DNA of 64,000 nucleotides. It comes from a virus. Its lineage: Duplodnaviria; Heunggongvirae; Uroviricota; Caudoviricetes. The translations under genes were made by a program, and so were the position numbers. Location of the stretch: IMG/VR virus record IMGVR_UViG_2937142334_000003, one strand, 5' to 3'. A model generated the notes under the pieces. It was not told where the DNA came from and made no database searches. It saw nothing but the letters and a program-made list of their open reading frames with translations. Below are positions 18,998 through 35,735 of this stretch, in pieces (position 1 is the first letter of the stretch; each line of letters opens with the position of its first letter).

Positions 18998-20132
18998 GTT
19001 AGAAAAAGAATTAAAGCCGGGAATTGCCCGTTTTATTGCTCGAGGACGAGCTTCTATTTCAAGCGACACATTCCCTGCACAAACTACTGAATCTAAGTCA
19101 GGTTGGGTATATAAACGAGTAGGCTTCCCAGTTAAGATTGGTGATAGTAATTCTATTTATGTACAAATGATGGGTGGCTACTCAAAGCGTAAGCCGGTTG
19201 TCCATGTATTTAACAAGGATACTAATCAACATATGGAGCTTGATTGGGATTTACGTGATAACGAAGATGCTCTTAAAAATGTTGCCGAATTCTCATTCAT
19301 CAATGTTGCTCTTGAACGCGACGAAAAAGGAAAGTTAATCCGAAAACGTTTCTTATCTGAACTAGATGCTATTAATTACATGAACGAACACTTACATGAC
19401 GGCCAAGAAATTTACGTTAGTGGTAACGTTGAATACCAACGTTACGATGGAAAGATTAGTCGTAGTTTCAATGTCACAAATATTGGCCTGTACGACGGTA
19501 AGGATAATGAGGAAGTAGAAGAAAAGGCGGAAATGCGTCAAACCTACTTGCTAGAAAGTACGGCGTTGCCAAGAGATTGGGAAAAGACATTAAAAGAAAG
19601 AAACGAGATTGTTGTTAATGCCTTTGTCCCACAATACGTTGGTAAGGAAAATGGCAAGGAAATTAAAAAGACGCTTGCTTTCCCACAACAATTTACTATT
19701 CAAACTACAGAAGACAAAGTAGATATGATGACCAAAGCTATCGAAACGCTTTTTAAAGTCAAAAAAGGCGTAGTTCGTGAAATTGGTCTCAAGAATAATA
19801 TTGTTCACGGTTATGAAAAGAGTACGGGTAAGATTCAACGAAGTAAGCAGGTTATGGAATTGATTCAACTTGGTATTATGACCGAAGAACAAATTGAAAA
19901 CGAAGAAACAATTGGTGACCGCAGTGTTGACAAGGTTATTTTCAAGATGCCATTAATGAACGTTGATGGTGAAAAGTCAGATTTCATGTTAGCAGACAAG
20001 TATTCGCCTGAAGCATTGATTGTCGTTGAAGATGATGAAGATATTGAAGAAAATACTAGCGTGTTCAACGAGGACGATAATAAAGATGAAGAAGCCAATG
20101 CAGACGCAATGTTTGGCGGTCTGTTTAAATAA
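18984..20132 (+). CDS. hypothetical protein with acidic C-terminus (possible ssDNA-binding or recombination protein)
   Basis: ORF track. RBS caaggagga. Confidence 0.5.
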   Translation: MPKAKLEKELKPGIARFIARGRASISSDTFPAQTTESKSGWVYKRVGFPVKIGDSNSIYVQMMGGYSKRKPVVHVFNKDTNQHMELDWDLRDNEDALKNVAEFSFINVALERDEKGKLIRKRFLSELDAINYMNEHLHDGQEIYVSGNVEYQRYDGKISRSFNVTNIGLYDGKDNEEVEEKAEMRQTYLLESTALPRDWEKTLKERNEIVVNAFVPQYVGKENGKEIKKTLAFPQQFTIQTTEDKVDMMTKAIETLFKVKKGVVREIGLKNNIVHGYEKSTGKIQRSKQVMELIQLGIMTEEQIENEETIGDRSVDKVIFKMPLMNVDGEKSDFMLADKYSPEALIVVEDDEDIEENTSVFNEDDNKDEEANADAMFGGLFK

Positions 20133-20195
20133 TAGTAAAACTCTCCCATTAGTCACAACAAAAATACGAAAATATATTTAATAAGGGGTTATTGT

Positions 20196-21191
20196 ATGGC
20201 GTTAGATTTGGATATGTTGCGAAAGCCTAATAGCCGAAAAAAAGGCTTAAAGATTTTAGTATATGGTCCGACAGGTGTCGGTAAAACAGTTTTCGGTCTT
20301 TCATTCCCAGAAATCATTGCAATGGATAGTGAAGACGGGTATGCGTGGTACGAAGGAACGGAACGAGCTAAGAATTTATTAGGAATTGTTGATTCTCAAT
20401 CCTTTGATGATTTAGCTAATTTGATTGATGAATTAGACAAAAATGTAGACGACTTCAAGACATTAATTATTGATTCAGAAACTAAGATTTACGAAAACAT
20501 TCAAGAAGCTCTTCAAGAAGTTGAAGAGTCACGAGCAATTCGTAAAGGAAAAGATGTACTTGATGCTAATTTGTCTGTACGTTCATGGGGAAAGATTAAG
20601 CAATTAGCGAGTCGCTTGCAGAACTTAAAACTTAAATTAGCAAGTCAAGGAATTAATATTGTGTCAATTGCTCAGGCTTCAGATGTAATGAAAGATGCAG
20701 GTGGCGGTGTCCGTGTTAAGACTGGCGAGAAGCCGGATATGGCAAAGAAGGCGCCATTCGATTACGACGTGGTTCTTCGATTATTTACTCGTGATAATAA
20801 ATACTTTGGTGTAGTTGAAAAAGACCGTACTGATACCTATGCTCGGGGAGCCGAAATCGAAAATCCTTCGTATGCCAACTGGGCCAAACGCTTAGAAGCA
20901 GATGACAACAAGGGTAATGTTATTGTTAAAGACTTTAGTAAGGATAAGAAAAAGGCCAAGGTCGCATATGAAGAAAGTATTACTTCTGAAATGCCGTTTG
21001 AAGATCAAGTAGCAGATTTCTTATCTTTGTTAGAAGGTCAAGATAAGAAGCAAGAATTTGCTACTAAAGTTAAAGAGATGACTGGAAGCAAGACTTTAAG
21101 CGCATTAACTAAAGAACAGCAGAATAAAGTTATTAAGTATATAAATGAACAAAAGGTGAAAATTTTAGACGAAACACCGGTAGCAGCTTAA
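20196..21191 (+). CDS. AAA/RecA-like ATPase (Sak4-like), putative
   Basis: ILVYGPTGVGKT Walker A and IIDSE Walker-B-like. Confidence 0.5.
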   Translation: MALDLDMLRKPNSRKKGLKILVYGPTGVGKTVFGLSFPEIIAMDSEDGYAWYEGTERAKNLLGIVDSQSFDDLANLIDELDKNVDDFKTLIIDSETKIYENIQEALQEVEESRAIRKGKDVLDANLSVRSWGKIKQLASRLQNLKLKLASQGINIVSIAQASDVMKDAGGGVRVKTGEKPDMAKKAPFDYDVVLRLFTRDNKYFGVVEKDRTDTYARGAEIENPSYANWAKRLEADDNKGNVIVKDFSKDKKKAKVAYEESITSEMPFEDQVADFLSLLEGQDKKQEFATKVKEMTGSKTLSALTKEQQNKVIKYINEQKVKILDETPVAA

Positions 21192-21289
21192 TAACACATA
21201 ACATATTTAATTACGAGGATTTTCCTCGTGTACATAATCATAATTGTGGAAGAAATTAATATCTGAGTGAAATATCAGCCAATATCATT

Positions 21290-22634
21290 AAATGTCGTGA
21301 TAAATATAAGATGGTGCCCGATAAATCTTTGAGAGGGGGTGATACAAACGATAAGAACAGAAAAAGTTAGATTATATCCTAATAGCATAATGAAACAACA
21401 GTTAAAGGATCTTTGTGACTATCGTCGCTATTGTTGGAACAAGGGTTTGGCGCTATGGAACGATATGTATGATGAGTCTGTCTTGCTAGGCAATAAGAAA
21501 TTACGACCCAACGAAAGGAAGGTTCGTAATGAACTTGTAACTAACAAACAAGATTGGCAATATCTATATTCGTCTCGTTGCCTACAATTAGCGATTTCTG
21601 ATCTTGGAAAGGCTTGGGAAAACTTTTTTAATAAAGCGCAATCCGATTGGGGAATACCCAAATTCAAATCTAAAAAAGCTCCTAAACAAGGCTTCAAAAC
21701 TGATCGAGCAAAGATTGTTAATGGGAAGCTGCGATTGGATAAGCCTAGAGGAATTAAAGAATGGTCGGATATTAAGATTGCAGGTGTAAAATCTCTAGAT
21801 GGTGACTTAAAGGTTGTATCAATTTACCGTGAGAACGGCAAATATTGGGCATCACTGCCTTTTGAAGTGACGATTAAGCATAAGCCTAAAACGGAGCAGA
21901 AGACAGCAATTGATGTCAATGTTGGACACTTTAATACTCCAGGTGGTCAAATTACCATTATTCCAAAGCGATTAGATAGGCTTTATAAACGGATTAAGCA
22001 TTACCAACGCCAATTAGCTAAGAAACGAATTGTTAATGGTAAACAAGCATACCAATCAAATAATTACGTTAAAACGAGAGCCAAGTTACAACGTGATTAT
22101 CGTAAAGTAACTAATATTCAGCGTGATATTATTCAAAAGTTTACTACTAAGCTAGTCGATGATTACGATCAAATCGTAATTGAAGATCTGGATGTTAAAC
22201 AAATGCAAATGAGTCATGTCGCTTCTAAGGGTTTACAACGTTCGTTGTTTGGTTACTTTCGCCAAGTTCTTACATACAAATGCGAGTGGTATGGCAAAGA
22301 ATTGATCCTCGCCAATCAGCATTATCCAAGTACGCAACGCTGTTCACAGTGTGGGTACATTAAAACTGGTGAGGATAAGATTACTCTAGCTGGGAATCAG
22401 AAATATCATACTAAGCATAACGAGTACATATGTTATAAGTGTGATGCAGTAATGGATAGAGATGAAAATGCTGTAATGAATTTATTACAGTTAGCATAAA
22501 TAAGAATAAATATTAACGGGGTGGGCTACATCCTTAAACTATCAGAGTTGGTCAATGTCATTACCCTCTAGTTAGGATATGGGAATACCGATGTTGACGG
22601 TAGTAAATAAAATTAAGAAAGGAAAAGCTATATA
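21290..22634 (+). mobile_element. IS607-family tnpB-only element, copy A. Conserved right end 22518..22634.
   Basis: Left-end motif taaatctttgagagggggtga. Right end nearly identical to copies at 30883..30999 and 59826..59935 (reverse complement). Confidence 0.6.
21339..22499 (+). CDS. tnpB: IS607-family TnpB
   Basis: VRLYPN..LCDYRRYCWN. AIDVNVGHFN, IVIEDLDVKQM, CSQCGY...CYKCDAVMDRDENAVMNL. Confidence 0.85.
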   Translation: MIQTIRTEKVRLYPNSIMKQQLKDLCDYRRYCWNKGLALWNDMYDESVLLGNKKLRPNERKVRNELVTNKQDWQYLYSSRCLQLAISDLGKAWENFFNKAQSDWGIPKFKSKKAPKQGFKTDRAKIVNGKLRLDKPRGIKEWSDIKIAGVKSLDGDLKVVSIYRENGKYWASLPFEVTIKHKPKTEQKTAIDVNVGHFNTPGGQITIIPKRLDRLYKRIKHYQRQLAKKRIVNGKQAYQSNNYVKTRAKLQRDYRKVTNIQRDIIQKFTTKLVDDYDQIVIEDLDVKQMQMSHVASKGLQRSLFGYFRQVLTYKCEWYGKELILANQHYPSTQRCSQCGYIKTGEDKITLAGNQKYHTKHNEYICYKCDAVMDRDENAVMNLLQLA

Positions 22635-22674
22635 ATCCTTTTTGAACGTAATCAAATTTAATTAATGATTATAT

Positions 22675-23958
22675 TTGTTCGTATTTTATATAGCAGGTTG
22701 GATTAGTATCGTTACAAAAGAATATAGCTATGTTAATAAAAAAGGTGAACATATTAATGTTACTCACCAACATTTAAATGTAGCTAGTGAAATTAAAGAA
22801 GAGTTGCAAAAAACGTCCCCATCGCGGCGTTGCTCATGGTCTAAGCACAAGAAGATGATGGAACAAGAGGGGTTCTATGATAGTGATACTAACGAAAACT
22901 ATCGTGGACTTATTAAACGTTTTCAAAAAGATTCTGGCCGTTTGAAAGATGCAACTACTCATGCGGACTTGATTGCTGATAATAAGTTGCAAAGTATTCA
23001 GAATGCAATTGGTCAATTGAATAGTAAGAAGTTGGAAACACAAGAACAGGGTCGGGCAATTCGGCGATTAGTTCGTCAAACTAATAAAGACCTGTTGTTC
23101 ATTAATGAAATTAAGTCGGCGTTAGAAAAGACCGATTTTGTTTTAGCAGAAAATCCAGTAATTCTTCCTGACGCTGGGCAGGATACAAATAGCTCAATGA
23201 TTGTTTGTTTATCCGACATTCATTATGGTGCATATGTTGATATGCCAGAAAACTATTATGATACACAAGTGGTTGAAGGTTTATTAATTAAATATGCTGA
23301 TAAAGTCATTAAACTTATCGAAGAAAATAAAGTCTATAGCGTTGATATTGTTAATCTTGGGGACATTGTAGAACATGCTTACATGCGTAACCAGAACTTA
23401 TACGACTCGGAAGAAACTTTGTCTGAACAAATCGTTCATGTAACAAAATTAATCATTGATTTTATTCAACGAATTCGGCAACATGTAGAGCTAATTACTT
23501 ATCGCGGAATTGCTGGGAACCATGATCGTATGCAAGGTGACAAGAATTCTAACTTAAATTCTGATCATGCGGTAAATATTAGCAATCAGATTATTAAGAT
23601 GTGGATTGAATTATCGGGATCAGACGTAGAATTTATTGATTCAGATAGCTATTTTACAGATATTAATGTGCAAGGCTGGAACTTTGCATTTGTACATGGT
23701 GATAGAAACAGTTTGAATAAAAAGACTACATTGGCTGAACTAGGAGAACAATACGATCGTCATTATGATGCTGTCCTTGGAGGACATTTACATCGTTTCT
23801 CAATGTTAGAAGTGGGTGACAATCGTTTCCAAGCAACTTTTGGATCGATCAAAGGAATGGATGAGTACAGCAAAAAAATAAGTGCGAAGTCCAGTCGTTC
23901 TCAAGGTGTTGTTTTGGTTAACCAAAACGAATTTGAAATTCGAAAGGTTAAATTATAA
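22675..23958 (+). CDS. calcineurin-like metallophosphoesterase (SbcD/Mre11-like nuclease candidate). Start uncertain.
   Basis: LSDIHYG, NLGDIVEH, GNHDR, GGHLHR motifs. Confidence 0.6.
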   Translation: MFVFYIAGWISIVTKEYSYVNKKGEHINVTHQHLNVASEIKEELQKTSPSRRCSWSKHKKMMEQEGFYDSDTNENYRGLIKRFQKDSGRLKDATTHADLIADNKLQSIQNAIGQLNSKKLETQEQGRAIRRLVRQTNKDLLFINEIKSALEKTDFVLAENPVILPDAGQDTNSSMIVCLSDIHYGAYVDMPENYYDTQVVEGLLIKYADKVIKLIEENKVYSVDIVNLGDIVEHAYMRNQNLYDSEETLSEQIVHVTKLIIDFIQRIRQHVELITYRGIAGNHDRMQGDKNSNLNSDHAVNISNQIIKMWIELSGSDVEFIDSDSYFTDINVQGWNFAFVHGDRNSLNKKTTLAELGEQYDRHYDAVLGGHLHRFSMLEVGDNRFQATFGSIKGMDEYSKKISAKSSRSQGVVLVNQNEFEIRKVKL

Positions 23959-24572
23959 TGGCTGTTCAAAAGTGCTATTACTGTGCTAATCCATTGAATG
24001 AAGAAGATATGGTAATCAAGCCAATTCCGCTAAAAACTAAGCGAGGGTCTAGGAATTATAAGCGTAAATTCCATATTGACTGTTTGCCTAAGTATCTTAA
24101 AGAACATAAAGACATCAAGTTCAAGGAGCAAGAAAACAGTGATTGGGATCAAGTTTATCGGTATTTCAAGTCAGAAATATTAAATCTTCCCGCTGGCGCC
24201 AACTTATCAAAATATTGCGTTGAACGTCTATTAGGATTGAGAGTGGGAAAATTTAGACCCTCAAGTACAAATGTGCGTGGAAATAAGCAAGGATACTCGT
24301 TCAAAACAATCTATTATACGCTGTTATATTCTTATGACGCCATAAAAAAAGCGCAGAAAACAGTCGATTTTAACAACGAAGAACATGAAGTTAATTACAT
24401 CATGAAAATCGTGACAGGAAATATTAATTTTATCCAGAGAAGATTAGATGCCTTAGATAAAGAGCGGAAAAAAGTAGAGAAAATTAGTAAAGAAGAAGAG
24501 AAGAAGATCGAACAGCCTACAGTCGCTTACAAGCGCAAAGGCTCTGGGAGACGGAAGGTTGATTTTATTTAA
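23958..24572 (+). CDS. hypothetical protein with N-terminal Cys cluster
   Basis: ORF track. ATGA overlap with upstream gene. Confidence 0.5.
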   Translation: MAVQKCYYCANPLNEEDMVIKPIPLKTKRGSRNYKRKFHIDCLPKYLKEHKDIKFKEQENSDWDQVYRYFKSEILNLPAGANLSKYCVERLLGLRVGKFRPSSTNVRGNKQGYSFKTIYYTLLYSYDAIKKAQKTVDFNNEEHEVNYIMKIVTGNINFIQRRLDALDKERKKVEKISKEEEKKIEQPTVAYKRKGSGRRKVDFI

Positions 24573-24862
24573 TGAAAGATAAACACATGTGGGTAGACCA
24601 AAAAATCGAAGAGCATAAACATGTATTAATGGCCTCATTTGGTTTTCAAGGTCTATTGAAATCAAGATTAAAGCTTCCATTGATTCTAAAGATTATAAGA
24701 GAAATGCCAGGGAGCGCAATTGAAAATGTAACAATCTTTTTTGATGAATTACGTGAGCATTATCTTGCTGATTCTCAATTCAAACAGTTTAGATTAAGCG
24801 AAGTTGATAGATTTATTTCAGAAGAGAAAAGTTTGGTAGGGTTGAAAGTTATTAATAATTAG
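24572..24862 (+). CDS. hypothetical protein
   Basis: ORF track. Confidence 0.45.
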   Translation: MKDKHMWVDQKIEEHKHVLMASFGFQGLLKSRLKLPLILKIIREMPGSAIENVTIFFDELREHYLADSQFKQFRLSEVDRFISEEKSLVGLKVINN

Positions 24863-24874
24863 GGGGTTCGGCGA

Positions 24875-26359
24875 TTGGTAGAAAAGGTAAAACAAGAAAA
24901 TACCATTATAAAATCTGACTTTTATAAAGAGCTGAAAACTCAAAGAGGTATCATCGAGAGTCAATTAATTTTTTCCCTTTACGGTGATACAAATTACTTT
25001 TTTGATTACCCTGTAAATCCAAACGATATTTCTAATTCGATGTGGCGTTTCTACTATCATATGCTGAAAGAGATGGTCGAGGATCGTGGGCTTAAAACTT
25101 TGGATGCAGTATCCGTAGGTGCCTACGTAAATTCCAAAGAAGAGAAAATTCAAAAAGCATATTCAGAAGCTGGTGGTTACGAAACCATTGAAAAGGGTAT
25201 TGCCATTGTTGAAAAAGAAAATGTCGATAGTTATTACAATGAATTGCAACGTTATAAAACGTTAATGAAACTGACTGAGATGGGATTTCCTATTAAGCAG
25301 AACTGGGATAAATACCAGGAAATGGACTTGGAAACCCTCAATGAAGTATTAGAAGGTCTTATAGCAGAGGCATTTGTAGATTCTCAATTTGGAAATGACC
25401 GAGTTGAAGAAATGTTTGATGATGTTGATGAAATGCTTAAAGAGGCTGATGAGGGTATTGCACAAGGACTACCATTAGGAAGTCCATTAATGGATTCAAT
25501 TCAAAACGGGTTAGCCCTAGGAAATATTACAATGTTAGCTGCCAATTCGGGGGTAGGGAAGACGTTTCTCACTACCCTTTTGCATATTCAAAGTTCAATT
25601 AATAACGAGGAACCTGTCTTAATTATCGCTAACGAAGAAGAAAAAAGTCGATATGTTCAAGGATTACTAACAGCTTATATTAACGCTCGCCATAAGGAGG
25701 CCATGTTTAACAAGAATAGGTTCTTACGAGGTAGTTTTACCGATGAAGAATGGGAATATTTAAACGAGGCCAAAGAATGGTATTTGAGAAAGGTGTCAGA
25801 AGGTCTAGTTCGTTTTGTTAATATGAATGAGTTTAGTATGGCAAAGACAATTCGACTTATTAAGAAGTATGCTCGATTATATGATGTACGGTATTTTATC
25901 CTTGATACATTGAAATTGGATAACGATACATATAGTCGGGTTAACGATAGTTCCTGGCTACAATTACAACAGAATATGGTGAAGCTATATAACGTGATTA
26001 AGCCTAGTAATTTGAACGTCCATGTTTGGGTTACTACGCAGATGACCAAAACTAATCGACGAGCACGTTATTTGGATCAAAGCATGATTGGAATGGCGAA
26101 GAATATTACCGACGTAGTATCGTCATTGATTTTAGTACGTATGGCCTCTCAATCAGAGGTGAGTGGGAAGAATGCTATTAAGGTAGTTAACTCAAGGGGA
26201 CACTCAGAAATGTTAGACGAAGATAATGATTACATGATTGTTTTCTGGGATAAAAACCGACAAGGTCAGACTAATCGACAGGTTGTTCTGGAGGTTGATC
26301 GTGGACTTAATCTTATTCGTGATGTTGGAAAAACACAAATTAATAATGATTTAGAATAA
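24875..26359 (+). CDS. DnaB-like replicative DNA helicase, putative
   Basis: AANSGVGKTFL Walker A and ILDTLKL (DnaB IDYLQL-like). Confidence 0.5.
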   Translation: MVEKVKQENTIIKSDFYKELKTQRGIIESQLIFSLYGDTNYFFDYPVNPNDISNSMWRFYYHMLKEMVEDRGLKTLDAVSVGAYVNSKEEKIQKAYSEAGGYETIEKGIAIVEKENVDSYYNELQRYKTLMKLTEMGFPIKQNWDKYQEMDLETLNEVLEGLIAEAFVDSQFGNDRVEEMFDDVDEMLKEADEGIAQGLPLGSPLMDSIQNGLALGNITMLAANSGVGKTFLTTLLHIQSSINNEEPVLIIANEEEKSRYVQGLLTAYINARHKEAMFNKNRFLRGSFTDEEWEYLNEAKEWYLRKVSEGLVRFVNMNEFSMAKTIRLIKKYARLYDVRYFILDTLKLDNDTYSRVNDSSWLQLQQNMVKLYNVIKPSNLNVHVWVTTQMTKTNRRARYLDQSMIGMAKNITDVVSSLILVRMASQSEVSGKNAIKVVNSRGHSEMLDEDNDYMIVFWDKNRQGQTNRQVVLEVDRGLNLIRDVGKTQINNDLE

Positions 26360-26491
26360 TTTATTTTTCTAGTGTCATGGACTTGGGTTATATGATATTA
26401 TGTATATTGTTAAACACAACAAAAATATTTTATATTGATTTTAGATAAAAACACAAGAAAATAATATTTTAGTTTAGAGAGGCTGGAAGGC

Positions 26492-27019
26492 ATGAAGCAA
26501 ACATACTCAGACGAATTTTACAATCATTTGTACCGTTTGGAATCGTATAACAAGATTGGCGAGAGCTGGTCACGAAAAGCTGACAAAAATAACCCGGATT
26601 TAATTTGGATACGCAATTATATTAAAGAAAATAATTTATTTGACGAATATAGTCATGATCGGCTAGAAAGAATGCTTAACAATTGCATTAGTCGTGGACT
26701 GGTTACGATTAAAGAAATTGCCGATGACTTAGAATTATCGGTACGTAAGATGCACAATCTATTAGTCAAGTATGACTTGCTAAGAAAACAACGTCTTGCG
26801 TACTATGCGAAAGTCGGTTATGTGATTACTGATAAGAATAATGATAATCCGGTATTCGTTAAGAGTATTTCTCATGGCTTAAGAGTTGCACCTGAACTAA
26901 GTAGACGGTCATTCGTTAATCTTGAAGGTCATAGAGTGATGCGAAACGGTCGTCATTTATATAAGACTGATGTCTGGAAGAAACAACACCCTGAATTCAA
27001 TCTTGAGGAGGTAGCGTAA
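26492..27019 (+). CDS. hypothetical protein
   Basis: ORF track. Confidence 0.5.
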   Translation: MKQTYSDEFYNHLYRLESYNKIGESWSRKADKNNPDLIWIRNYIKENNLFDEYSHDRLERMLNNCISRGLVTIKEIADDLELSVRKMHNLLVKYDLLRKQRLAYYAKVGYVITDKNNDNPVFVKSISHGLRVAPELSRRSFVNLEGHRVMRNGRHLYKTDVWKKQHPEFNLEEVA

Positions 27020-27022
27020 TCT

Positions 27023-27328
27023 ATGGAAGTGTCCAAGAAGCCATTTACTTTTACGTTAAAAAACGACTTCAACATGACTGGTTTTTTACTAAAAGCAAAA
27101 CCTGATGAAGCATTTAGAACTAAGACTGAATTATCAAAAGAACTAGTTCGTACAAACACAACTTCTAATGTGAAGTTAAAAGATAATATTGATTTAACGC
27201 AAGAAGATGTAGAAAAGCTTATTGAGGCTGGCCGTAAGACTCTGATTTATTATGAAGCAAATAATAGATTAGATGCATATAATTATCCCGACGAATTCGA
27301 ATTACTTGATCTGGTGGTGAAATATTAA
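27023..27328 (+). CDS. hypothetical protein
   Basis: ORF track. Confidence 0.45.
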   Translation: MEVSKKPFTFTLKNDFNMTGFLLKAKPDEAFRTKTELSKELVRTNTTSNVKLKDNIDLTQEDVEKLIEAGRKTLIYYEANNRLDAYNYPDEFELLDLVVKY

Positions 27329-29598
27329 TGGCCGAAATAGAAATTGTAGGTTCGATTCAGCGCATAAGGTTTGCCGCCAACGATTCATTATTCAAAATTG
27401 CTACGATGAGGGTGTCAGAGGTACGAGAAGGGAATATTGTTAAAAATTCTTTTGGCGATGTAGTGTTCAAGGGTGAGATGTCACTCATTCCTCAGAACGA
27501 ATATATTATTCGCGGTGAATTTATTAACGATGAAAAATATGGCCCGCAATATCAATACATTAGCAGCAAGCGTCGAGATCCAATTGAAGGTATGTCTCGA
27601 GAAGACTTCCGGCAATTCCTTACTGATATCTCCCCCAAAGGGGTACTTGTTAATGCTCAGTTTGATGATCCTCGACCTATTTTTCAAGAGCATAGGGTAA
27701 AAGAATTGATGGCTATCAAGGGCATTGGACCTGTTAGTGCCGACAAGTTGATTAACGCCTATGAAGAGCAAAAAGATTATAGCGAAGCCTACGTTGCTTT
27801 TGGTAAGTGGGGCTTTAACCCTAATATGACACGAAAATTAGTACGCCACGTTCACTCAGTGGAAGGTGCTATTGAACTACTTAATAAAGATCCTTATGAG
27901 TTTATGGATGTTCCAGGAGTAGGTTTTAAGACTATAGACGAAAAGGCGCTTAATTTTGGTATTCAATCTAATGATCCACGTCGTGTCCATGCTTTCGTAA
28001 AGGATTACTTTGATAAGTTAGCTATGGATGGAAGTTCCTGGACTAAAGAAATAGATTTGATGAAATATCTTCGCCAAGAAGTGTTTGATTGTGACGTTGA
28101 AGAGACACTTCAATGGATTAACGACAGTGACGAATTTGTTGCTTATGAAGTTGATTACGTAAGGCGAGTGGCTACTAAGCGTTTGTATAACACCGAAAAA
28201 TCTATTGCAAAGAATCTATTGAGATTACTTCACTCTGAAAATAAATTTGAGTATAAAGAGCGCGATAAAATTATCGACAGAATTCAAGAAGAACAAGGTT
28301 GGAAATACTCAGACGAACAGACCGAAGCAATTAATATGATGCTTGATAAAAATGTATCAATGTTACAGGGATTAGCCGGTACAGGTAAATCTACCGCCTT
28401 AAATGCCGTGATTAAAGTATTACAGGAGAATGACTACCAGGTAGCTACCTGTGCATTGTCTGGGAAGGCAGCTGATAATCTTACTCAATTAACAGGTAAA
28501 CGAGGACAGACTATTCACCGTTTGCTTGGAATCGGTGATCCATTTGGCGGTTTTGAACATGAAGAAAATCCATTGCCAGTTGATGTGGTTATCTTAGATG
28601 AGGTGTCAATGGTTAATGATAGCTTATTTGAGGCGCTAGTTAATGCTTTGGGCGATGGTACTAAATTTATTATGGTCGGTGATATCGCTCAATTAGATTC
28701 TATTGGTGTTGGGGTTATGAGAGATATTATTTCTTCTAAAATTGTCCCTACTGTTTCTTTGACTAAGATTCATCGTCAAGCACAGGATTCAGCAATTATT
28801 ACTCATTCATTACAATATCGAATGGGCAAGATGCCTGAGGTTAGCCCGAAAGATAGTTGGACAATGCTAGGTAATAAGAACGATCTAGGCTATGTGTTTG
28901 AAGATTCGGCAGAAGAAGAGAAGCTAAACACAGATGCTTATAGGATTTTTGCCCAGGCGTTAAATAAGTATGATGTTAGCAATATTCAAATACTCACTCA
29001 GACAGTTAGTGGTTGTACTCGTATTAATGACTTAGCACAAACAATTGCTAACCCGAAAAGTCCTACTAAGAACCAATATAAGGTCAAAGCTAACAGTGCT
29101 GATGCTTATATTCTACGTGAAGGCGATAAAGTGCTTAACACGTCAAATAACTATCGGGCAACAGCAGCAGAGAATCATCAAATGTATCGACCAATTTTCA
29201 ACGGAAACACAGGAATTATCGAAAGTATCGATCTTGAATTTAATAGCAAGGGTGGCATTAGTCATGTTGAGGCTATTATTGATTTCGACGGGGTCGGTAA
29301 AGTATTTCTTAGAGATAAAGAACTTGAGACTATCCAACTAGGGTACGCGATGACAGTTCATAAGTCCCAAGGGTCTACTATTCCATGTGTGATTGTGGTG
29401 TTGCCATTCCATTACATGCTAAATAATCGGGAATTATTATATACGGCTTTGACCCGAGCTAGTGAGCTTTGTTTCTTGCTTACATCAACAAAGTCACTTA
29501 AATCAACTGTTAAAAAAACTGGTGAGACTGTTCACCGTAGCAATTTAGGATTGTTATTAAAGAGGGAGGAATTAATTGCTCCCAAAAACGTAGAATAA
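27328..29598 (+). CDS. RecD2-like ATP-dependent DNA helicase (SF1, with HhH region)
   Basis: LAGTGKST, VVILDEVSMV, MVGDIAQL, HKSQGST, plus GIGPVSADKLINAY HhH. Confidence 0.7.
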   Translation: MAEIEIVGSIQRIRFAANDSLFKIATMRVSEVREGNIVKNSFGDVVFKGEMSLIPQNEYIIRGEFINDEKYGPQYQYISSKRRDPIEGMSREDFRQFLTDISPKGVLVNAQFDDPRPIFQEHRVKELMAIKGIGPVSADKLINAYEEQKDYSEAYVAFGKWGFNPNMTRKLVRHVHSVEGAIELLNKDPYEFMDVPGVGFKTIDEKALNFGIQSNDPRRVHAFVKDYFDKLAMDGSSWTKEIDLMKYLRQEVFDCDVEETLQWINDSDEFVAYEVDYVRRVATKRLYNTEKSIAKNLLRLLHSENKFEYKERDKIIDRIQEEQGWKYSDEQTEAINMMLDKNVSMLQGLAGTGKSTALNAVIKVLQENDYQVATCALSGKAADNLTQLTGKRGQTIHRLLGIGDPFGGFEHEENPLPVDVVILDEVSMVNDSLFEALVNALGDGTKFIMVGDIAQLDSIGVGVMRDIISSKIVPTVSLTKIHRQAQDSAIITHSLQYRMGKMPEVSPKDSWTMLGNKNDLGYVFEDSAEEEKLNTDAYRIFAQALNKYDVSNIQILTQTVSGCTRINDLAQTIANPKSPTKNQYKVKANSADAYILREGDKVLNTSNNYRATAAENHQMYRPIFNGNTGIIESIDLEFNSKGGISHVEAIIDFDGVGKVFLRDKELETIQLGYAMTVHKSQGSTIPCVIVVLPFHYMLNNRELLYTALTRASELCFLLTSTKSLKSTVKKTGETVHRSNLGLLLKREELIAPKNVE

Positions 29599-29654
29599 TA
29601 TCTACGAGAAAACAAAATATGGAGTAGATATTGTGACCATAGTTGAACCAAAAT

Positions 29655-30999
29655 AAATGGTAGAACATTTGGGCGTATCTATTAAATCTTTGAAAGGTGG
29701 TGAGATAAATGATCCGAACAGAAAAAGTTAGGTTGTATCCCAATACGACAATGAAACAAGCCATAGATGCCTTGTGTGACTATCGACGTTATTGCTGGAA
29801 CGAAGGCTTGGCGTTGTGGAATGATATGTATGAAGAGTCTAAGTTGATGGACAATAAGAAGTTACGACCAAATGAGTACAAGGTCCGTAATGAACTTGTT
29901 GCTAATAAACAAGATTGGCAATATCTATATTCGTCTCGTTGCCTACAATTAGCGATTTCTGATCTTGGAAAGGCTTGGGAAAACTTTTTCGACAAAGCCC
30001 AACCAGATTGGAGTATGCCAAAATTTAAGTCTAAGAAGACTCCAAGACAAGGTTTTAAGACTGACCGAGCCAAGATTGTTAATGGTAAACTCCGATTAGA
30101 TAAGCCAAGAGGGGTTAGTGGCTGGACAGATATTAGGATCTCGGGCGCTAAGCCCCTAGATGGCGAATTAAAAGTCATATCGATCTATCGTGAGAATGGC
30201 AAATACTGGGCGTCATTACCTTTTGAAACATCGGTTGATACAAAGTCTAAAACAGGTCAAAGTACAGCTATCGATGTTAACGTGGGCCACTTTAACTATC
30301 CCGATGGTCAGATTAATGTTTTGCCAGTAAAATTACAAAAGCTCTACAAGCGGATCAAGCATTACCAACGCCAATTGGCCCGTAAAAGGATTACGAATGG
30401 CAAAATGGCAACGCAAAGCAATAATTACATGAAAACGAGAGCCAAGTTGCAGCGCGATTATCGCAAGGTTGTCAACATTCAATCCGATCTTTTACAAAAG
30501 TTCACGACTAAGTTAGTCACCAATTACGACCAGATCGTTATCGAAGATCTTGCCGTCAAGAAAATGATGATGGATCACGTAGCATCGAAGGGTATGCAGC
30601 GGTCGTTGTTTAGCAAGTTTCGTCAAATTCTAACCTATAAGTGTGATTGGTACGGTAAGAAACTAATTCTGGCAAATAGATGTTATCCAAGTACACAGCG
30701 CTGTTCGCAATGTGGACATCTCAAGACTGGCGTGGACAAGATTACTCTAGCCGGCAACCAAAAACATCGTACTAAACACAATGAGTATATCTGTTACGAA
30801 TGTGGTTTGGTTATGGATAGAGATGAAAATGCCGTCATGAACTTATTACGGTTGGCGGCGGCGTAAAAAGAAAAATGCTTTTGGGGTGGGCTACACCCTT
30901 AGGCCATCAGAGTTGGTCAATGTCATTACCCTCTTGTTGGGCTATGGGAATACCGATGTTGACGGTGGTAAATAAAATTAAGAAAGGAAAAGCTATATA
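29655..30999 (+). mobile_element. IS607-family tnpB-only element, copy B
   Basis: Same left-end and right-end motifs as copy A. A ~90-bp stretch (29910..29990) is identical to 21551..21630. Confidence 0.6.
29709..30866 (+). CDS. tnpB: IS607-family TnpB
   Basis: Homolog of 21339..22499. Confidence 0.85.
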   Translation: MIRTEKVRLYPNTTMKQAIDALCDYRRYCWNEGLALWNDMYEESKLMDNKKLRPNEYKVRNELVANKQDWQYLYSSRCLQLAISDLGKAWENFFDKAQPDWSMPKFKSKKTPRQGFKTDRAKIVNGKLRLDKPRGVSGWTDIRISGAKPLDGELKVISIYRENGKYWASLPFETSVDTKSKTGQSTAIDVNVGHFNYPDGQINVLPVKLQKLYKRIKHYQRQLARKRITNGKMATQSNNYMKTRAKLQRDYRKVVNIQSDLLQKFTTKLVTNYDQIVIEDLAVKKMMMDHVASKGMQRSLFSKFRQILTYKCDWYGKKLILANRCYPSTQRCSQCGHLKTGVDKITLAGNQKHRTKHNEYICYECGLVMDRDENAVMNLLRLAAA

Positions 31000-31064
31000 C
31001 TTTCTAATTAGGTAGAAAATTACATTATTCTACTTAATTCCATATTTTATATAGCAGAAGCAAT

Positions 31065-31406
31065 ATGATGAAAAAGTATAACGGCGAATCTATGCGTGTT
31101 ATTCGTGCTTATAAAGTTGATAATACTCAATATGTAGATTTGCGTAATCAAGCTGGAAAAGACTTTGAGAGTATTCCAGTTGAGGATTTAGGTAAGAAGA
31201 AAGCAATAAAAAAGAAAGCTGTAGTTGAAAAAAGAGTTCCTAGAATTCGTTTTTCAAAGGGCAATGAGGAATATATCTTTTGGTTAGACTCTAACGAATA
31301 CGAAAAGTTTGTTGCCGATAATAAATTAAATAAAGCAATGATTCAAAATTGTCTTGAAGGCGTAGTAAAAACACATAAAGGATACAAGATAAGTGAAGTT
31401 AAATAG
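31065..31406 (+). CDS. hypothetical protein
   Basis: ORF track. Confidence 0.45.
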   Translation: MMKKYNGESMRVIRAYKVDNTQYVDLRNQAGKDFESIPVEDLGKKKAIKKKAVVEKRVPRIRFSKGNEEYIFWLDSNEYEKFVADNKLNKAMIQNCLEGVVKTHKGYKISEVK

Positions 31407-31614
31407 AGAACCTATGTATTTTTACTATAAAGGAATTCAAATTATTCCTACTAATCAGTGGGAAGTAGATGGTGATAGTGGGACAGTTCAGTTTATTGAT
31501 GCAATTAATGTTAGAACAGGGCGTGAAATGACTGGATTGCCTGCAAAGAAAATTGTTGTAAGTAAAATTCATGTATTACCAAACAAGGAGGAAGTAAATG
31601 GAAAAATCAGTTAA
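31393..31614 (+). CDS. hypothetical protein
   Basis: ORF track. Confidence 0.4.
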   Translation: MKLNREPMYFYYKGIQIIPTNQWEVDGDSGTVQFIDAINVRTGREMTGLPAKKIVVSKIHVLPNKEEVNGKIS

Positions 31615-32407
31615 ATGGTCTATTGGAGTAGTTATTGTATTATTGGGTGTCACTATTGGGGGCTTCCGATTCTTTGAGAAGATTGATAATGGTAACGTTG
31701 GTATTCGTTATTCGATGTCGGGAGGGGTTCGTGACGAAAGTTTAGGCCAGGGAGTACGATTCGTTGGGTTAGATAAAGTTACTCAGTATCCTATTCGCAG
31801 TCAAACTGTTAAACAAAAGGTTGGGTCTGCTACTAAAGATGGGAAGAAGACTACTGTTAATATTACTTATGCTTACCATGTAGATCCAACTAAAGCCACT
31901 AAGGTATATAAGAAATTTGGATCAGCAGATATTAAGTCAATTGAAAATGGTTGGCTTAATCAAAAGCTTCAAAAAGCTAGTCGTGATGAATTATCTAAGT
32001 ATAGCTTGCTTGATGTAATGGGTGCTGGCTCTGCTAAGGTCCAAGGCGCCATTTTGAAGGACTTCCAAAAGTCAGTTGAAGACCAAGGATTCATTGTTGA
32101 AGATTTAAGTTTCGGCGTTCCTGATGTTGATGCTCAAACTCAAAAATCAATTGATGATTTAATTAAGGCCAGTCAAGATAACGAACGGGCTAAGTTAGAA
32201 GCGAAGACTAAGAAGACCGAGGCCGAAGCTGATGCAAATGCAAAGATTGCACGTGCAGAAGGGGAAGCTAAGGCAAATAAGAAGATTTCTGATTCAATCA
32301 CTGATAAGAATATTCAATACATGGAAGCACAAGCACACCTTAAGCATGGTTTCGTTACTGTTCAAGGTGCAAATGGTGTGATTGTAGATCAAGCAGGTAA
32401 CAAGTAA
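31598..32407 (+). CDS. SPFH/band-7 (prohibitin/HflC-like) membrane protein
   Basis: N-terminal TM, GIRYSMSGGV...QTV core, C-terminal coiled coil KLEAKTKKTEAEADANAKIARAEGEAKA. Confidence 0.6.
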   Translation: MEKSVKWSIGVVIVLLGVTIGGFRFFEKIDNGNVGIRYSMSGGVRDESLGQGVRFVGLDKVTQYPIRSQTVKQKVGSATKDGKKTTVNITYAYHVDPTKATKVYKKFGSADIKSIENGWLNQKLQKASRDELSKYSLLDVMGAGSAKVQGAILKDFQKSVEDQGFIVEDLSFGVPDVDAQTQKSIDDLIKASQDNERAKLEAKTKKTEAEADANAKIARAEGEAKANKKISDSITDKNIQYMEAQAHLKHGFVTVQGANGVIVDQAGNK

Positions 32408-32566
32408 TGGGATATTTCATTGTTAAGTCATTAATGCTACTAGTTGTTATTGGCGTTTTAATATTTGGAAATTTGTATTTAATAGACAACAAGAAGAGTG
32501 AAAGCTCGGATAAGCAGCCCAAATAGGGTAAAAGCTACTAAACAAGAAAGAGGGAATTATATAAAT

Positions 32567-34236: not shown

Positions 34237-34331
34237 AGATATCGTTGATGAGGAGCAACGCAGTTGCGACCCGTTAATAAATCACACAGATCAAATGATC
34301 AATTCAACATTTCAGGATTATTCCTGATTAT

Positions 34332-34404
34332 GGGCTTATAGTTTAACTGGAGAGAACAGTAATCTTCTAAATTACCAACCTTGGTTCGAGTCCAAGTGAG
34401 CCCA
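34332..34404 (+). tRNA. tRNA-Arg (anticodon TCT)
   Basis: Manual cloverleaf: acceptor gggctta/tgagccc, D-arm gttt/gaac, anticodon stem gtaat/attac with loop cttctaa, T-arm cttgg-ttcgagt-ccaag. 73 nt. Confidence 0.8.
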
Positions 34405-34432
34405 TCAACTCTTATGAAAGGGAGGCGGATAC

Positions 34433-35125
34433 ATGTTTGTCCCTGTTAGCGATTATGAGGGATTATATAAGATTAACGAAATTGGAGAAGTTAGATCTGT
34501 GCATAGAATATATAAAGATTCTATCGGCAGAGCAAGAACGGTCAATGAACACGTCGTTAAACCTTGCGTCAATAAATCTGGATATAAAACGCTTGGACTA
34601 TATAAGGATGGAAAAAGAACTACAGAATATGTTCATAAGTTGGTATATGCCTCTTTTAATCATTTAACTCATGAAGAAATAGGTGAAATTGATATCGATC
34701 ATATCGATGGAAATAAACTAAATTGTCATTTAGATAATTTGGAAGCTGTTTCTCACAAAGAGAATATTCATAGAAAAATATGCCGAAAAAATGGACTAAC
34801 AATTCAAAAAGGTAATTCTTATGCCGAAAATTTTCATTATTTTGGACAACAAAATAAATTCTTTAAAATAAGATGTAGAATTTGCGGTAAGCCATTGTTA
34901 AAAAGTGAAAGCGGACTTTGTAGAATTTGTTATGATTCTTACGTAAGGAGCAGCAAAAAGCCTAATAAGCAACAGTTTCTCATTCATCTTCGTAAAACAC
35001 TGGATATTCACGACCTGAGTAAAATATATGACGTAGAAGAGCACAGTGTTAGAAGATGGTTAAGAGAATACGGCATACCAAGCCTCACTGAGCTCAAAAA
35101 GAATCCTGAATTAATTGAAGCGTAA
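34433..35125 (+). CDS. HNH homing endonuclease with NUMOD4-like N-terminus
   Basis: GLYKINEIGEVRSV and IDHIDGNKLNCHLDNLEAVSHKEN. Confidence 0.75.
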   Translation: MFVPVSDYEGLYKINEIGEVRSVHRIYKDSIGRARTVNEHVVKPCVNKSGYKTLGLYKDGKRTTEYVHKLVYASFNHLTHEEIGEIDIDHIDGNKLNCHLDNLEAVSHKENIHRKICRKNGLTIQKGNSYAENFHYFGQQNKFFKIRCRICGKPLLKSESGLCRICYDSYVRSSKKPNKQQFLIHLRKTLDIHDLSKIYDVEEHSVRRWLREYGIPSLTELKKNPELIEA

Positions 35126-35510
35126 ATTGCGAAGAGTGGAAAGGCAATACGTACATTTTGGAAGTACACACTCCCTATATATCTTTTAAATTCATAATAC
35201 AAACACACCTTTCTAATTTTTAATCATCCATGTTTGTCTTTTACAGAGGTTCGACTCCTCTGCTTCGCATAGGGCAGAAATGCCCGAAATTATTAAACAT
35301 TTGCGTGCTGTGTTTAATAATCAAAAATTGTTGATTCATAAATTTTCATTTCTTTTTATCTACTTTTGTCAGCACACTGCGGTTCGATTCCGTTTTGTGT
35401 TATTCCCAGCTAAGTGGTTGGGCTGGGGAACTCCTTTCATGGTTAAACACCTCCGAAATATGAAAGATTAGTTAGTCAGATAAGATATGTGTGGTCTTAT
35501 CTTGATATGG

Positions 35511-35580: not shown

Positions 35581-35735
35581 TTCCTAGTAATAGGTTGTTC
35601 CAAATGACGGAAAACGTTTGGAATGTAAAAACACCTAACGTATGTTCAATAGGTTATATTTTCCACATGCCTTTACCTTTACATTTTTCAATTCGATCTA
35701 ATAACGTGTTTGCGCTGGCATGGCACGTTATTAAT

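What the first reader, a model, noticed from the sequence alone, without database searches (positions are those of the whole stretch)
21290..31060. Two IS607-type tnpB-only copies bracket the replication module and show gene conversion. All copies share a conserved putative omega-RNA right end.
Copies at 21339..22499 and 29709..30866 are ~80 percent identical but contain a 90-bp stretch of 100 percent identity (21551..21630 = 29910..29990). Both, and the complete IS607 at 59.8-61.8 kb, end in a conserved ~115-bp block (ggggtgggctaca ... atcagagttggtcaatgtcattaccctc ... gaaaggaaaagctatata). The 3' flanks then diverge immediately, as expected for TnpB omega-RNA scaffolds with locus-specific guides. 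The two same-orientation copies flank the phosphoesterase, DnaB-like and RecD2-like genes, a composite-transposon-like layout.
Basis: seen in the sequence. Interest (0 to 1): 0.55.

Follow-up and report, generated by a model that had tools for sequence, protein, structure and literature searches.

The report
Three IS607 TnpB elements in phage
A large lactic-acid-bacteria phage carries three decaying copies of a known IS607-type mobile element with a guide-RNA nuclease (TnpB). They inserted independently next to ribosome-binding sites and have exchanged short DNA patches, which is a clear but ordinary example of a known system.

Summary
The sequence observation largely holds. There are three IS607-family elements: A at 21237-22696, B at 29569-31057 and C at 59761-61805 on the minus strand.

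- **Copies.** A and B lack tnpA. Their tnpB genes are 75% identical in DNA and share an exact 83-bp tract.
- **Gene conversion.** This is strongly supported. A sister phage has B at the same site but lacks A. Its B differs from the window's B at 28 sites, and 20 of them lie inside the tract. At all 20 the window's B matches A (P about 2e-17).
- **Right-end block.** Its core is the curated Rfam family Transposase-1 RNA. The scaffold is 175-179 nt, with 8 helices and 27 covarying pairs, and it continues through an inverted-repeat hairpin to a terminal UAUAGCAG. The guides begin after that motif.
- **Insertion sites.** Empty sites in sister phages show insertion just after GGAG, 7-11 nt before a start codon for B and C. 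This matches the published AGGAG motif for IS607 TnpB.
- **Composite transposon.** This reading is refuted. Sister phages carry the same replication module without A, or without both copies.

Verdict: a new member of a known kind, of modest interest.

The parts
21237..22696 (+). Copy A. An IS607-family element with no tnpA and a truncated left end; the outer left-end tip and about 22 nt of the phage flank, including the GGAG target, are deleted.
   Evidence: Sister phages L101-L104 align up to 21236 and resume at about 22697. Their empty site reads ...ACTATGGAG|G(G)TGGATTAG.
21339..22499 (+). tnpB of copy A, 386 aa from a GTG start. The codon aligned with the ATG start of the other copies is ACG (21348-21350). 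The RuvC D/E/D motifs are present.
   Evidence: Pfam HTH_OrfB_IS605, OrfB_IS605 and Cas12f1-like_TNB. Alignment A1. The catalytic residues were aligned to ISDra2 TnpB for copy B; for A the same IDVNVG, IEDL and DRDENA motifs were read from the sequence, not aligned.
22518..22696 (+). Guide-RNA (omega-RNA / reRNA) scaffold of copy A, 179 nt. Its Rfam Transposase-1 core lies at 22539-22597.
   Evidence: Rfam 74.2 bits against a gathering score of 42.8. Consensus structure with covariation.
22697..22716 (+). Predicted guide of copy A (GTTGGATTAGTATCGTTACA).
   Evidence: It is the first flank-specific bases after ...GCAG. It is unique in the window apart from three 3-mismatch hits that lack a GGAG motif.
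21546..21628 (+). Gene-conversion tract in copy A, which is the inferred donor.
   Evidence: 83-bp exact identity with 29907-29989. The outgroup test supports A as donor.
29569..31057 (+). Copy B. An IS607-family element with tnpA deleted internally. It keeps a diverged left end (GAATTAATTGCTCCC...) and a remnant of the first tnpA codons (GTG ACC ATA GTT GAA CCA AAA TAA, about 29633-29656). Its left boundary is uncertain by 1-3 nt.
   Evidence: The empty site in L101 and L104 reads AAAGAGGGAGGAG|AAGCAATATGATG; the site is occupied in L103/L001.
29709..30866 (+). tnpB of copy B, 385 aa with an ATG start and an intact RuvC D/E/D triad.
   Evidence: Pfam. Alignment to ISDra2 TnpB (8EXA and relatives, E 2.8e-27) and to ISFba1 TnpB (8IAZ, E 3e-18).
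29907..29989 (+). Gene-conversion tract in copy B, which is the recipient.
   Evidence: Of the 28 differences between the window's B and the orthologous B in sister phage L001, 20 fall at 29921-29987. At all 20 the window's B matches A; binomial P = 2e-17.
30883..31057 (+). Guide-RNA scaffold of copy B, 175 nt. Its Transposase-1 core lies at 30904-30962.
   Evidence: Rfam 68.8 bits. The single-sequence fold has z = -2.75. Covariation.
31058..31077 (+). Predicted guide of copy B (AAGCAATATGATGAAAAAGT). It overlaps the start codon of the next gene (ATG at 31065).
   Evidence: Unique in the window. Its first 16 nt match the empty allele next to AGGAG in sister phages L101 and L104 exactly.
59761..61805 (-). 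Copy C, a complete IS607-family element of 2045 bp. Its left flank ends ...TTAGGAGGAG (61813-61806). Its right flank is GAAACACATAA followed by the ATG at 59749.
   Evidence: No empty site was found for this copy.
61048..61722 (-). tnpA, a serine recombinase with a MerR-type HTH and a resolvase catalytic domain.
   Evidence: Pfam Resolvase 4e-19 and MerR 1e-9.
59945..61106 (-). tnpB of copy C. It is interrupted by a +1 frameshift in a run of five G (60215-60219), so it reads as 316 + 95 aa.
59761..59935 (-). Guide-RNA scaffold of copy C, 175 nt. Its Transposase-1 core lies at 59856-59914.
   Evidence: Rfam 75 bits.
59741..59760 (-). Predicted guide of copy C (GAAACACATAAATGGTAGCA).
   Evidence: It begins at the first base after ...GCAG and is unique in the window.

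Best explanation
The window is from a large Lactobacillaceae phage that carries three independently inserted, partly decayed members of one IS607-family insertion-sequence clade. That clade is widespread in Lactobacillaceae chromosomes and phages.

**Element layout.** Each element runs from a left end ((N3-4)TTAACnGTTAAC, followed by direct repeats of a short lineage-specific motif), through an optional tnpA and then tnpB, to a structured RNA scaffold of 175-179 nt that ends ...UAUAGCAG.

**Shown here.**
- The element boundaries, apart from a 1-3 nt uncertainty at B's left junction (see the Against line).
- The independence of insertions A and B.
- The RNA fold.
- The target-site preference.
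- The direction of gene conversion between A and B.

**Inferred from published work on IS607 TnpB.**
- The scaffold plus about 16-20 nt of the flank is transcribed with tnpB, or processed from its mRNA, to give the guide RNA.
- TnpB loaded with this RNA cuts the empty allele, which is AGGAG followed by the guide match.
- Recombination with an occupied copy then restores or spreads the element.
- The serine recombinase TnpA, which only copy C still encodes, inserts the element just after GGAG. I infer an AG core dinucleotide.
- The element's own right end reads AGCAG. It differs from the motif at position -3 and so should escape self-cleavage.

**Consequences.** AGGAG is also the Shine-Dalgarno sequence, so elements land between a gene's ribosome-binding site and its start codon, in the gene's orientation. 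The three paralogous copies in one phage genome recombine with each other. An A-to-B conversion tract of 67-83 bp is shown, and an A/C tract of about 95 bp is probable.
For: **Family and proteins.**
- Pfam domains of TnpA and TnpB.
- RuvC D/E/D aligned with ISDra2 TnpB for copy B. In A the same motifs are visible in the sequence.
- 100 related loci with 51-98% TnpB identity come from Lactobacillaceae genomes and IMG/VR viral contigs. Those in which the ends could be read share the same end architecture.

**Right boundary.** In multi-copy genomes identity ends at ...GCAG (L082 against L087, L025 against L072). The terminal 15-mer occurs only at the three copies in the window.

**RNA.**
- Rfam RF03014 scores 69-75 bits against a gathering score of 42.8 at all three copies.
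- A 50-sequence alignment gives 45 pairs in 8 helices. 97.6% of cells are paired, against 43-51% when partners are slid. 27 pairs have compensatory changes. No shuffle of 500 reaches the observed covariation.
- G-U pairs fit the tnpB strand.
- Helix 6 ties the terminal AUUUUAU to AAUAAAAU, just after the Rfam core.

**Target.**
- Empty sites in sister phages lie directly after GGAG for both A and B.
- At 30 unique sites where the canonical left-end motif was located with a GGAG at most 6 nt upstream, position -5 is A in 21.
- The first ATG lies 5-11 nt after the right end at 43 of 69 unique sites.
- Published TAMs for IS607 TnpB: AGGAG in 18 of 22 strains, with a 187-nt scaffold (PMC11061315); TGGG against a right end of TCGG in the CboIStron (bioRxiv 10.1101/2023.11.20.567912).

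**Gene conversion.** for A/B; for A/C.
Against: - Nothing here tests expression, RNA processing, cleavage or transposition.
- Each copy has a defect. A has lost its left-end tip, its target motif and its canonical ATG. B has lost tnpA and has a diverged left end. C's tnpB is frameshifted. The system may be largely inactive in this phage.
- The exact junction at site B fits a 2-nt AG core only if the sister phages differ by a 3-nt GAG indel. Taken literally, the overlap is a single A.
- Site A's flank differs from every sister allele at guide positions 2-3.
- The TnpB is closer in sequence to ISDra2 TnpB than to the AGGAG-recognising ISFba1. ISFba1's motif-contacting residues are not conserved by my reading of the alignment (K80/K83/N121/N122 correspond to R/Q/D/R). 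The TAM therefore rests on comparative genomics alone.
- The left-flank GGAG count is conditioned on my motif search. In about half of the sites that search did not locate a canonical left end with an adjacent GGAG.
Confidence: 0.8

Rival explanations
1. One reading: the element ends at ...GAAAGGAAAAGCTATATA, and the 16-20 nt that follow are locus-specific guides.
For: A differs strongly from B and C in the next 50 nt or so (35-41% identity).
Against: B and C are 66% identical in that segment. All copies, and all but two of the 50 aligned relatives, continue with CTTTCT plus an inverted repeat; the exceptions are L012, which lacks the repeat, and A, which reads CCTTTT. Every relative then carries the TTTTATATAGCAG terminal motif or a close variant of it. 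That segment forms helices 7, 8 and 6 with compensatory changes. Copies within one genome stay identical up to ...GCAG. Sister-phage empty sites join at ...GCAG, not at ...CTATATA.
Confidence: 0.02
2. A and B form a composite transposon that mobilises the replication module (exonuclease, DnaB-like helicase, RecD/ExoV-like helicase).
For: The two copies have the same orientation and flank about 7 kb.
Against: The module sits in the same place at 95-98% identity in L101, L102 and L104 without either copy, and in L103 with B only. A lacks a left-end tip and neither copy has tnpA. A and B also have different end-repeat lineages: TAATCA in A, TAGAA in B.
Confidence: 0.02
3. The 83-bp identity reflects strong purifying selection on an embedded functional element, not gene conversion.
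For: The tract encodes a conserved part of the TnpB N-terminal region.
Against: Copy C is only about 73% identical to A and B over the tract. The orthologous B in the sister phage differs from the window's B at 20 positions there, and from A at the same 20. Outside the tract the two B copies differ at only 8 of about 1075 positions. No other family pair at 70-80% identity has such a run.
Confidence: 0.03
4. The lineage-specific inverted repeat before the terminal motif (helix 8) is mainly a DNA site for TnpA binding rather than an RNA helix. The ends evolve by coevolution between TnpA and its sites.
For: The same short motif recurs as 2-3 direct repeats in the left end, which lies outside the RNA, and it switches together with the right-end arms between lineages: ATAGAA/TGTAGAA against TAGTCA/TAATCA. 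Elements share more 8-mers between their own left and right ends than with the ends of other elements (3.8 against 2.0). In ISFba1, loop regions of the reRNA are dispensable (PMC11061315).
Against: All 9 pairs of helix 8 show compensatory changes, and G-U pairs are tolerated on the tnpB strand, as expected for RNA. The two roles do not exclude each other.
Confidence: 0.45
5. The copies are domesticated, TldR-like guide-RNA regulators of the downstream phage genes, not selfish homing nucleases.
For: The guides overlap the translation start regions of the downstream genes. A and B have lost tnpA.
Against: The RuvC triad is intact in A and B. The insertions are polymorphic among near-identical sister phages. 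The same placement is explained by the AGGAG target motif. Guides are simply the adjacent flank, as in ordinary elements.
Confidence: 0.05

Closest known systems
IS607-family TnpB with RAGATH-18-derived reRNA (ISFba1 and relatives; Ren et al. 2024, Cell Res, PMC11061315; PDB 8IAZ)
   Same: A TnpB of about 385 aa is followed by a scaffold of about 180 nt and a guide of about 20 nt taken from the flank. The target-adjacent motif is AGGAG. The elements belong to the IS607 family and occur in Firmicutes.
   Different: The scaffold here matches Rfam Transposase-1 (RF03014). No RAGATH-18 hit appears even at E up to 10. Protein similarity to 8IAZ is weak (E 3e-18), weaker than to ISDra2 TnpB. ISFba1's motif-contacting residues are not conserved.
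CboIStron / IS607 TnpB homing system (Zedaveinyte et al., bioRxiv 10.1101/2023.11.20.567912) and ISXfa1 (PMC10711439)
   Same: A serine-recombinase TnpA and a TnpB share one G-rich target motif. The right end resembles the motif but differs at position -3 (TGGG against TCGG there, GGAG against GCAG here). Copies that have lost tnpA coexist with complete ones.
   Different: There is no group I intron (no Rfam intron hit). The inferred core dinucleotide is AG rather than GG. The motif is AGGAG-like rather than TGGG or GGG.
Rfam RF03014, Transposase-1 RNA
   Same: All three copies match the whole 59-nt model at 69-75 bits.
   Different: The Rfam model covers only the three-helix core. The conserved structure found here is about three times longer and reaches the transposon end.
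TnpB 'transposase' genes of Lactobacillus Herelleviridae phages Lb338-1 and Lbab1
   Same: Several tnpB copies occur in a large lactobacillus phage. The Lbab1 copy ends ...AAGCAG, followed by 9 nt and an ATG.
   Different: Protein identity is only 48-49%. The Lbab1 right end does not reach the Rfam gathering score. The window phage has no megablast match in the phage collection.

Membership tests
IS607-family insertion sequence | A serine-recombinase TnpA (N-terminal MerR-like HTH plus resolvase catalytic domain) upstream of tnpB and overlapping it | tested here: met
   Met in copy C: Resolvase 4e-19, MerR 1e-9, and the tnpA end overlaps the tnpB start. B keeps only the first codons. A has none.
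IS607-family insertion sequence | No terminal inverted repeats and no long target duplication; insertion at a short G-rich motif or core dinucleotide | tested here: met
   The empty sites of A and B join directly after GGAG with an overlap of at most 1-2 nt. The ends are not inverted repeats of each other. The exact core (AG) is inferred, not proven.
IS607-family insertion sequence | Excision as a double-stranded circle by TnpA | not testable with these tools
   This needs an experiment.
TnpB / omega-RNA (OMEGA) RNA-guided nuclease | A TnpB with an OrfB_IS605 RuvC domain, an intact D-E-D triad and a zinc-ribbon TNB domain | tested here: met
   Met in A and B. C is frameshifted between the E and the second D.
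TnpB / omega-RNA (OMEGA) RNA-guided nuclease | A conserved structured RNA scaffold 3' of tnpB that reaches the transposon right end | tested here: met
   Rfam hit. 8 helices, 27 covarying pairs, 97.6% of cells paired. The scaffold ends at ...GCAG, which is the element boundary.
TnpB / omega-RNA (OMEGA) RNA-guided nuclease | The guide is the flank just beyond the right end and differs at each insertion; a conserved motif abuts the left end | tested here: met
   Flanks are unrelated after ...GCAG at 69 unique sites. GGAG lies at the left junction where the left end could be located, and at both empty sites.
TnpB / omega-RNA (OMEGA) RNA-guided nuclease | The RNA is expressed and processed, and DNA cleavage is RNA-guided and depends on the adjacent motif | not testable with these tools
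   No expression or biochemical data are available.
Rfam RF03014 Transposase-1 RNA | A score above the curated gathering threshold over the full model | tested here: met
   75.0, 74.2 and 68.8 bits against 42.8, covering model positions 1-59 of 59.
RAGATH-18-derived reRNA | A match to the RAGATH-18 covariance model in the scaffold | tested here: not met
   The window has no hit at the gathering threshold. Region 30300-31150 has none at E up to 10.
Composite transposon | The segment between the two IS copies is mobilised with them and is absent from relatives that lack them | tested here: not met
   The segment is present and syntenic in four sister phage contigs that lack A, three of which also lack B.
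IStron | A group I intron at the 5' end of the element | tested here: not met
   There is no intron family among the Rfam gathering-threshold hits of the window.
TldR (nuclease-dead TnpB-like repressor) | Loss of the RuvC catalytic residues | tested here: not met
   D, E and D are present in A and B.

The most novel reading that the evidence does not exclude
This IS607 clade uses the Shine-Dalgarno sequence itself (AGGAG) as its target and adjacent motif. It therefore wedges itself, co-oriented, between the ribosome-binding site and the start codon of genes, and replaces the site with the near-copy AGCAG. In virulent phages the surviving TnpB-guide pair would act as a phage-against-phage homing drive. 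Copy B's guide matches 16 of 16 nt next to AGGAG in sister phages that lack the element. Under this reading the presence/absence polymorphism and the inter-copy conversion tracts are traces of repair triggered by double-strand breaks during co-infection.
Probability: 0.35. Interest if true: 0.5.

Novelty: new member of a known kind. Interest (0 to 1): 0.3.

Why it matters
The finding adds little that is new in kind, because published work already covers most of it:
- IS607 TnpB with AGGAG-type motifs.
- Guide-RNA scaffolds of about 180 nt.
- Homing by TnpB.
- tnpB copies in phages.

The locus is still a clean natural example, for three reasons:
1. Near-identical sister phages differ by the presence or absence of two elements. 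This gives exact empty sites and an outgroup that fixes the direction of a gene-conversion event.
2. The Rfam Transposase-1 motif can now be read as the core of a longer TnpB guide-RNA scaffold, with helices that reach the transposon end.
3. The placement between ribosome-binding site and start codon raises a testable question: how do the downstream phage genes stay translated?

The element family, with a compact 385-aa TnpB and a defined scaffold, could also be a candidate genome-editing nuclease.

Tried and rejected
- A megablast of 20000-32500 against the phage collection found nothing, so the phage has no close annotated relative.
- An exact search for part of the right-end block in genome contigs found nothing.
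- Three attempts to find an empty or orthologous site for copy C failed: a flanking protein, a 24-nt flank pattern and the 1031-aa neighbouring protein (which returned only relatives at 29-35% identity). C's boundaries therefore rest on family comparison alone.
- I looked for a promoter or terminator in the right end that could explain expression of the downstream gene. Nothing exceeded chance.
- I searched the window for second targets of the three guides. There were only a few 3-mismatch hits without GGAG, which I take as chance.
- I tried to infer the adjacent motif from homology to ISFba1's motif-contact residues. They are not conserved.
- The direction of the A/C tract could not be determined, because no orthologue of A or C is available.
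- A literature search for 'Transposase-1 RNA' or RF03014 found no paper.

Full report
**1. What is in the sequence**

The window has the composition and gene content of a large phage. GC is 30-41%. It has a cluster of tRNA genes and a tmRNA gene at 34-40 kb. Its genes match phage families for a Sak4-like annealing protein, an exonuclease, a DnaB-like helicase and a RecD/ExoV-like helicase. It has no close relative in the annotated phage collection.

Three tnpB genes are present:
- A at 21339-22499 (+).
- B at 29709-30866 (+).
- C at about 59945-61106 (-). C is preceded by a serine-recombinase tnpA with a MerR HTH and a resolvase domain, at 61048-61722.

All three carry the HTH_OrfB_IS605, OrfB_IS605 and Cas12f1-like TNB domains. 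C's tnpB is split by a +1 frameshift in a run of five G. A and B keep the RuvC D/E/D triad. For B this was checked by alignment to ISDra2 TnpB. In A the same motifs are visible in the sequence.

**2. Checking the observation**

The A and B ORFs are 75% identical in DNA and 80% in protein. A and C are 71% identical, and B and C 69%.

The exact tract is 83 bp, at 21546-21628 = 29907-29989. Among 282 family pairs at 70-80% identity, the 99th percentile of the longest exact run is 58 bp. The A/B pair is the maximum.

The conserved block of about 115 nt exists and is 92-94% identical pairwise.

The statement that the flanks diverge immediately afterwards is wrong. A further 45-55 nt follow, and then a terminal motif, TATTTTATATAGCAG, is shared by all three copies. 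This 15-mer occurs nowhere else in the window.

**3. True boundaries**

I collected 100 related loci: 20 IMG/VR viral contigs and 80 genome contigs, nearly all from Lactobacillaceae. Their TnpB identity to copy B ranges from 51% to 98%.

Those whose right end could be read show the same layout:
- the scaffold block;
- AAGAAAGG..CTTTCT;
- an inverted repeat whose arms differ between lineages;
- TTC(C/T)A(C/T)ATTTTATATAGCAG;
- then unrelated sequence.

In genomes with several copies, identity stops exactly after ...GCAG (L082 against L087, L025 against L072).

On the left, elements begin (N3-4)TTAACnGTTAAC, and the preceding bases are (A)GGAG.

Four sister-phage contigs (L101-L104) have flanks 91-99% identical to the window, and they give direct empty sites:
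- Site A is empty in all four. It reads ...ACTATGGAG|G(G)TGGATTAG.
- Site B is empty in three. In L101 and L104 it reads ...AAAGAGGGAGGAG|AAGCAATATGATG. It is occupied in L103.

The elements are therefore A = 21237-22696, B = 29569-31057 and C = 59761-61805(-).

Each copy shows decay:
- A has lost its left-end tip together with about 22 nt of phage flank. The codon aligned with the ATG start of the other copies is ACG.
- B has an internal tnpA deletion that leaves a seven-codon remnant and a stop.

At single-nucleotide level the junctions are slightly ambiguous. Site B fits a 2-nt AG core only if the sister phages carry an extra in-frame GAG. Site A's flank differs from the sister alleles by one base near the junction.

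**4. The composite-transposon idea**

The 7-kb module between A and B is present, syntenic and 95-98% identical in phages that lack A, or that lack both copies. A and B also belong to different end-repeat lineages: TAATCA-type arms in A and TAGAA-type in B and C. They are independent insertions, and the composite layout is a coincidence.

**5. Gene conversion**

The sister phage L001/L103 has B at the same site but no A.

Its tnpB differs from the window's B at 28 of 1158 positions. Twenty of these lie at 29921-29987. At every one of the 20, the window's B carries A's base. The binomial P for the clustering alone is 2e-17.

A therefore donated a tract of 67-83 bp to B in the window's lineage.

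A second small cluster lies at 30512-30527. It has 6 differences, and B matches A at 4 of them.

A and C share a 95-nt stretch (A 22137-22231) with 3 mismatches, against 68% identity elsewhere. This suggests further exchange, but its direction is unknown.

**6. The RNA**

Rfam's Transposase-1 RNA (RF03014) matches the core of the block in all three copies at 69-75 bits, against a gathering score of 42.8.

A 50-sequence alignment from GGGG(U/C)(G/U)GGCUA to ...GCAG gives a consensus of 8 helices and 45 pairs:
- 97.6% of cells are paired, against 43-51% when the partners are slid by 1-3 columns.
- 27 pairs have compensatory changes.
- No shuffle of 500 reaches the observed covariation.
- Frequent G-U pairs fit the tnpB strand.

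Helix 6 pairs the terminal AUUUUAU with AAUAAAAU just downstream of the Rfam core. It encloses helix 7 (AAGG/CUUU) and the inverted-repeat helix 8. UAGCAG is left single-stranded before the guide.

The scaffold is thus 175-179 nt, like the 187-nt ISFba1 scaffold (PMC11061315).

The loop of helix 7, (G)CUAUAU, is also complementary to the terminal AUAUAG(C). The two change together in several lineages: CUAUAC with GUAUAG, and UAUGCAA with UUGCAUA. I read this as a pseudoknot or an alternative helix.

The arms of helix 8 recur as direct repeats in the left end and switch with it between lineages. That segment is therefore probably also the TnpA binding site.

**7. Mechanism**

Published work on IS607 TnpB gives three relevant results:
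- G-rich adjacent motifs that coincide with the TnpA target.
- A right end that mimics the motif except at position -3.
- Homing by cleavage of the empty site.

The sources are bioRxiv 10.1101/2023.11.20.567912, PMC10711439, and PMC11061315 (AGGAG in 18 of 22 strains).

The present elements fit this picture. GGAG lies at the left junction and AGCAG at the right end. The guides are the next 16-20 nt: 22697-, 31058- and 59760-. Each guide is unique in the window.

Copy B's guide matches the empty allele of sister phages L101 and L104 over its first 16 nt, next to AGGAG. If TnpB-B is active, it could therefore convert those phages during co-infection.

AGGAG is also the Shine-Dalgarno sequence. 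The first ATG lies 5-11 nt after the right end at 43 of 69 unique sites. It lies at +7 for B and +11 for C. I found no promoter-like signal in the right end, so how the downstream genes are translated remains open.

Activity itself is inferred, not shown.

**8. Comparison and verdict**

The elements meet every sequence-level criterion of IS607-family TnpB/guide-RNA elements. They do not meet the criteria of RAGATH-18 reRNAs, IStrons, TldR or composite transposons.

The TnpB is closer in sequence to ISDra2 TnpB (E 3e-27) than to ISFba1 (E 3e-18). ISFba1's motif-contact residues are not conserved. It is therefore a distinct clade that shares the AGGAG-type target.

Overall this is a new member of a known kind. 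The gene-conversion and guide-RNA ideas are right in substance. The right-end and guide positions and the composite-transposon idea are wrong.

Noticed in passing
window 34331-40438: The phage carries a cluster of tRNA genes (6 by ARAGORN, up to 10 Rfam tRNA hits) and a full-length tmRNA gene at 39659-40036, with tag peptide ANNHRVTALAA.
   Followed up: no
window 49870-50045 (-): An Rfam hit to the Listeria sRNA rli28 (70 bits against a gathering score of 45) covers the full model, in an intergenic stretch of the phage.
   Followed up: no
window 60215-60219 (-): Copy C's tnpB has a +1 frameshift in a run of five G, where the other copies have three. It may be a real pseudogene or a homopolymer sequencing error.
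   Followed up: partly
window 21339-21350: In copy A the codon aligned with the ATG start of B and C is ACG. The ORF stays open only from a GTG 9 nt upstream, which sits directly against the G-rich ribosome-binding site.
   Followed up: partly
window 22675-22800: For the exonuclease gene downstream of copy A, the only canonical in-frame start before the conserved region is a TTG at 22675, inside the element's right end. The ATGs at 22730 and 22757, the latter with a good ribosome-binding site, are out of frame. The true start is unresolved.
   Followed up: partly
window 30512-30527 and 22137-22231: There is a second cluster of 6 differences between the window's B and the sister phage's B, and B matches A at 4 of them. 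It lies in the same region where A and C are 97% identical over 95 nt. The region encoding the RuvC IEDL motif looks like a hotspot for exchange among the three copies.
   Followed up: partly
alignment A2 columns 123-136 against 196-204 (e.g. window 30979-30991 against 31047-31055): The loop of helix 7, (G)CUAUAU, is complementary to the terminal AUAUAG(C) and co-varies with it in several lineages. It overlaps helix 6 by 1-2 nt, which suggests a pseudoknot or a conformational switch next to the guide.
   Followed up: partly
left ends: window 29569-29610 and 61805-61750 (-); loci L024, L025, L046: The left ends carry 2-3 direct repeats, about 10 bp apart, of the same short motif that forms the arms of the right-end inverted repeat. 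The motif changes in both ends together between lineages. These are probably TnpA binding sites.
   Followed up: partly
L012 (IMGVR_UViG_2937174130_000003) and L108 (phage Lbab1, MT758689.1 116582-117748): A second contig from the same IMG/VR source (2937174130) as the sister phage carries a more distant tnpB copy (68% identity) whose right end lacks the inverted repeat. The Herelleviridae phage Lbab1 has five places that match this TnpB. The one examined ends ...AAGCAG, followed by 9 nt and an ATG.
   Followed up: partly
window 21195-21236: A hairpin, ACGAGGATTTTCCTCGT, lies just after the Sak4-like gene and directly upstream of the deleted left flank of copy A. It is conserved in all sister phages. 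It is followed by GTACATA rather than a T run, so it is not a typical intrinsic terminator.
   Followed up: no
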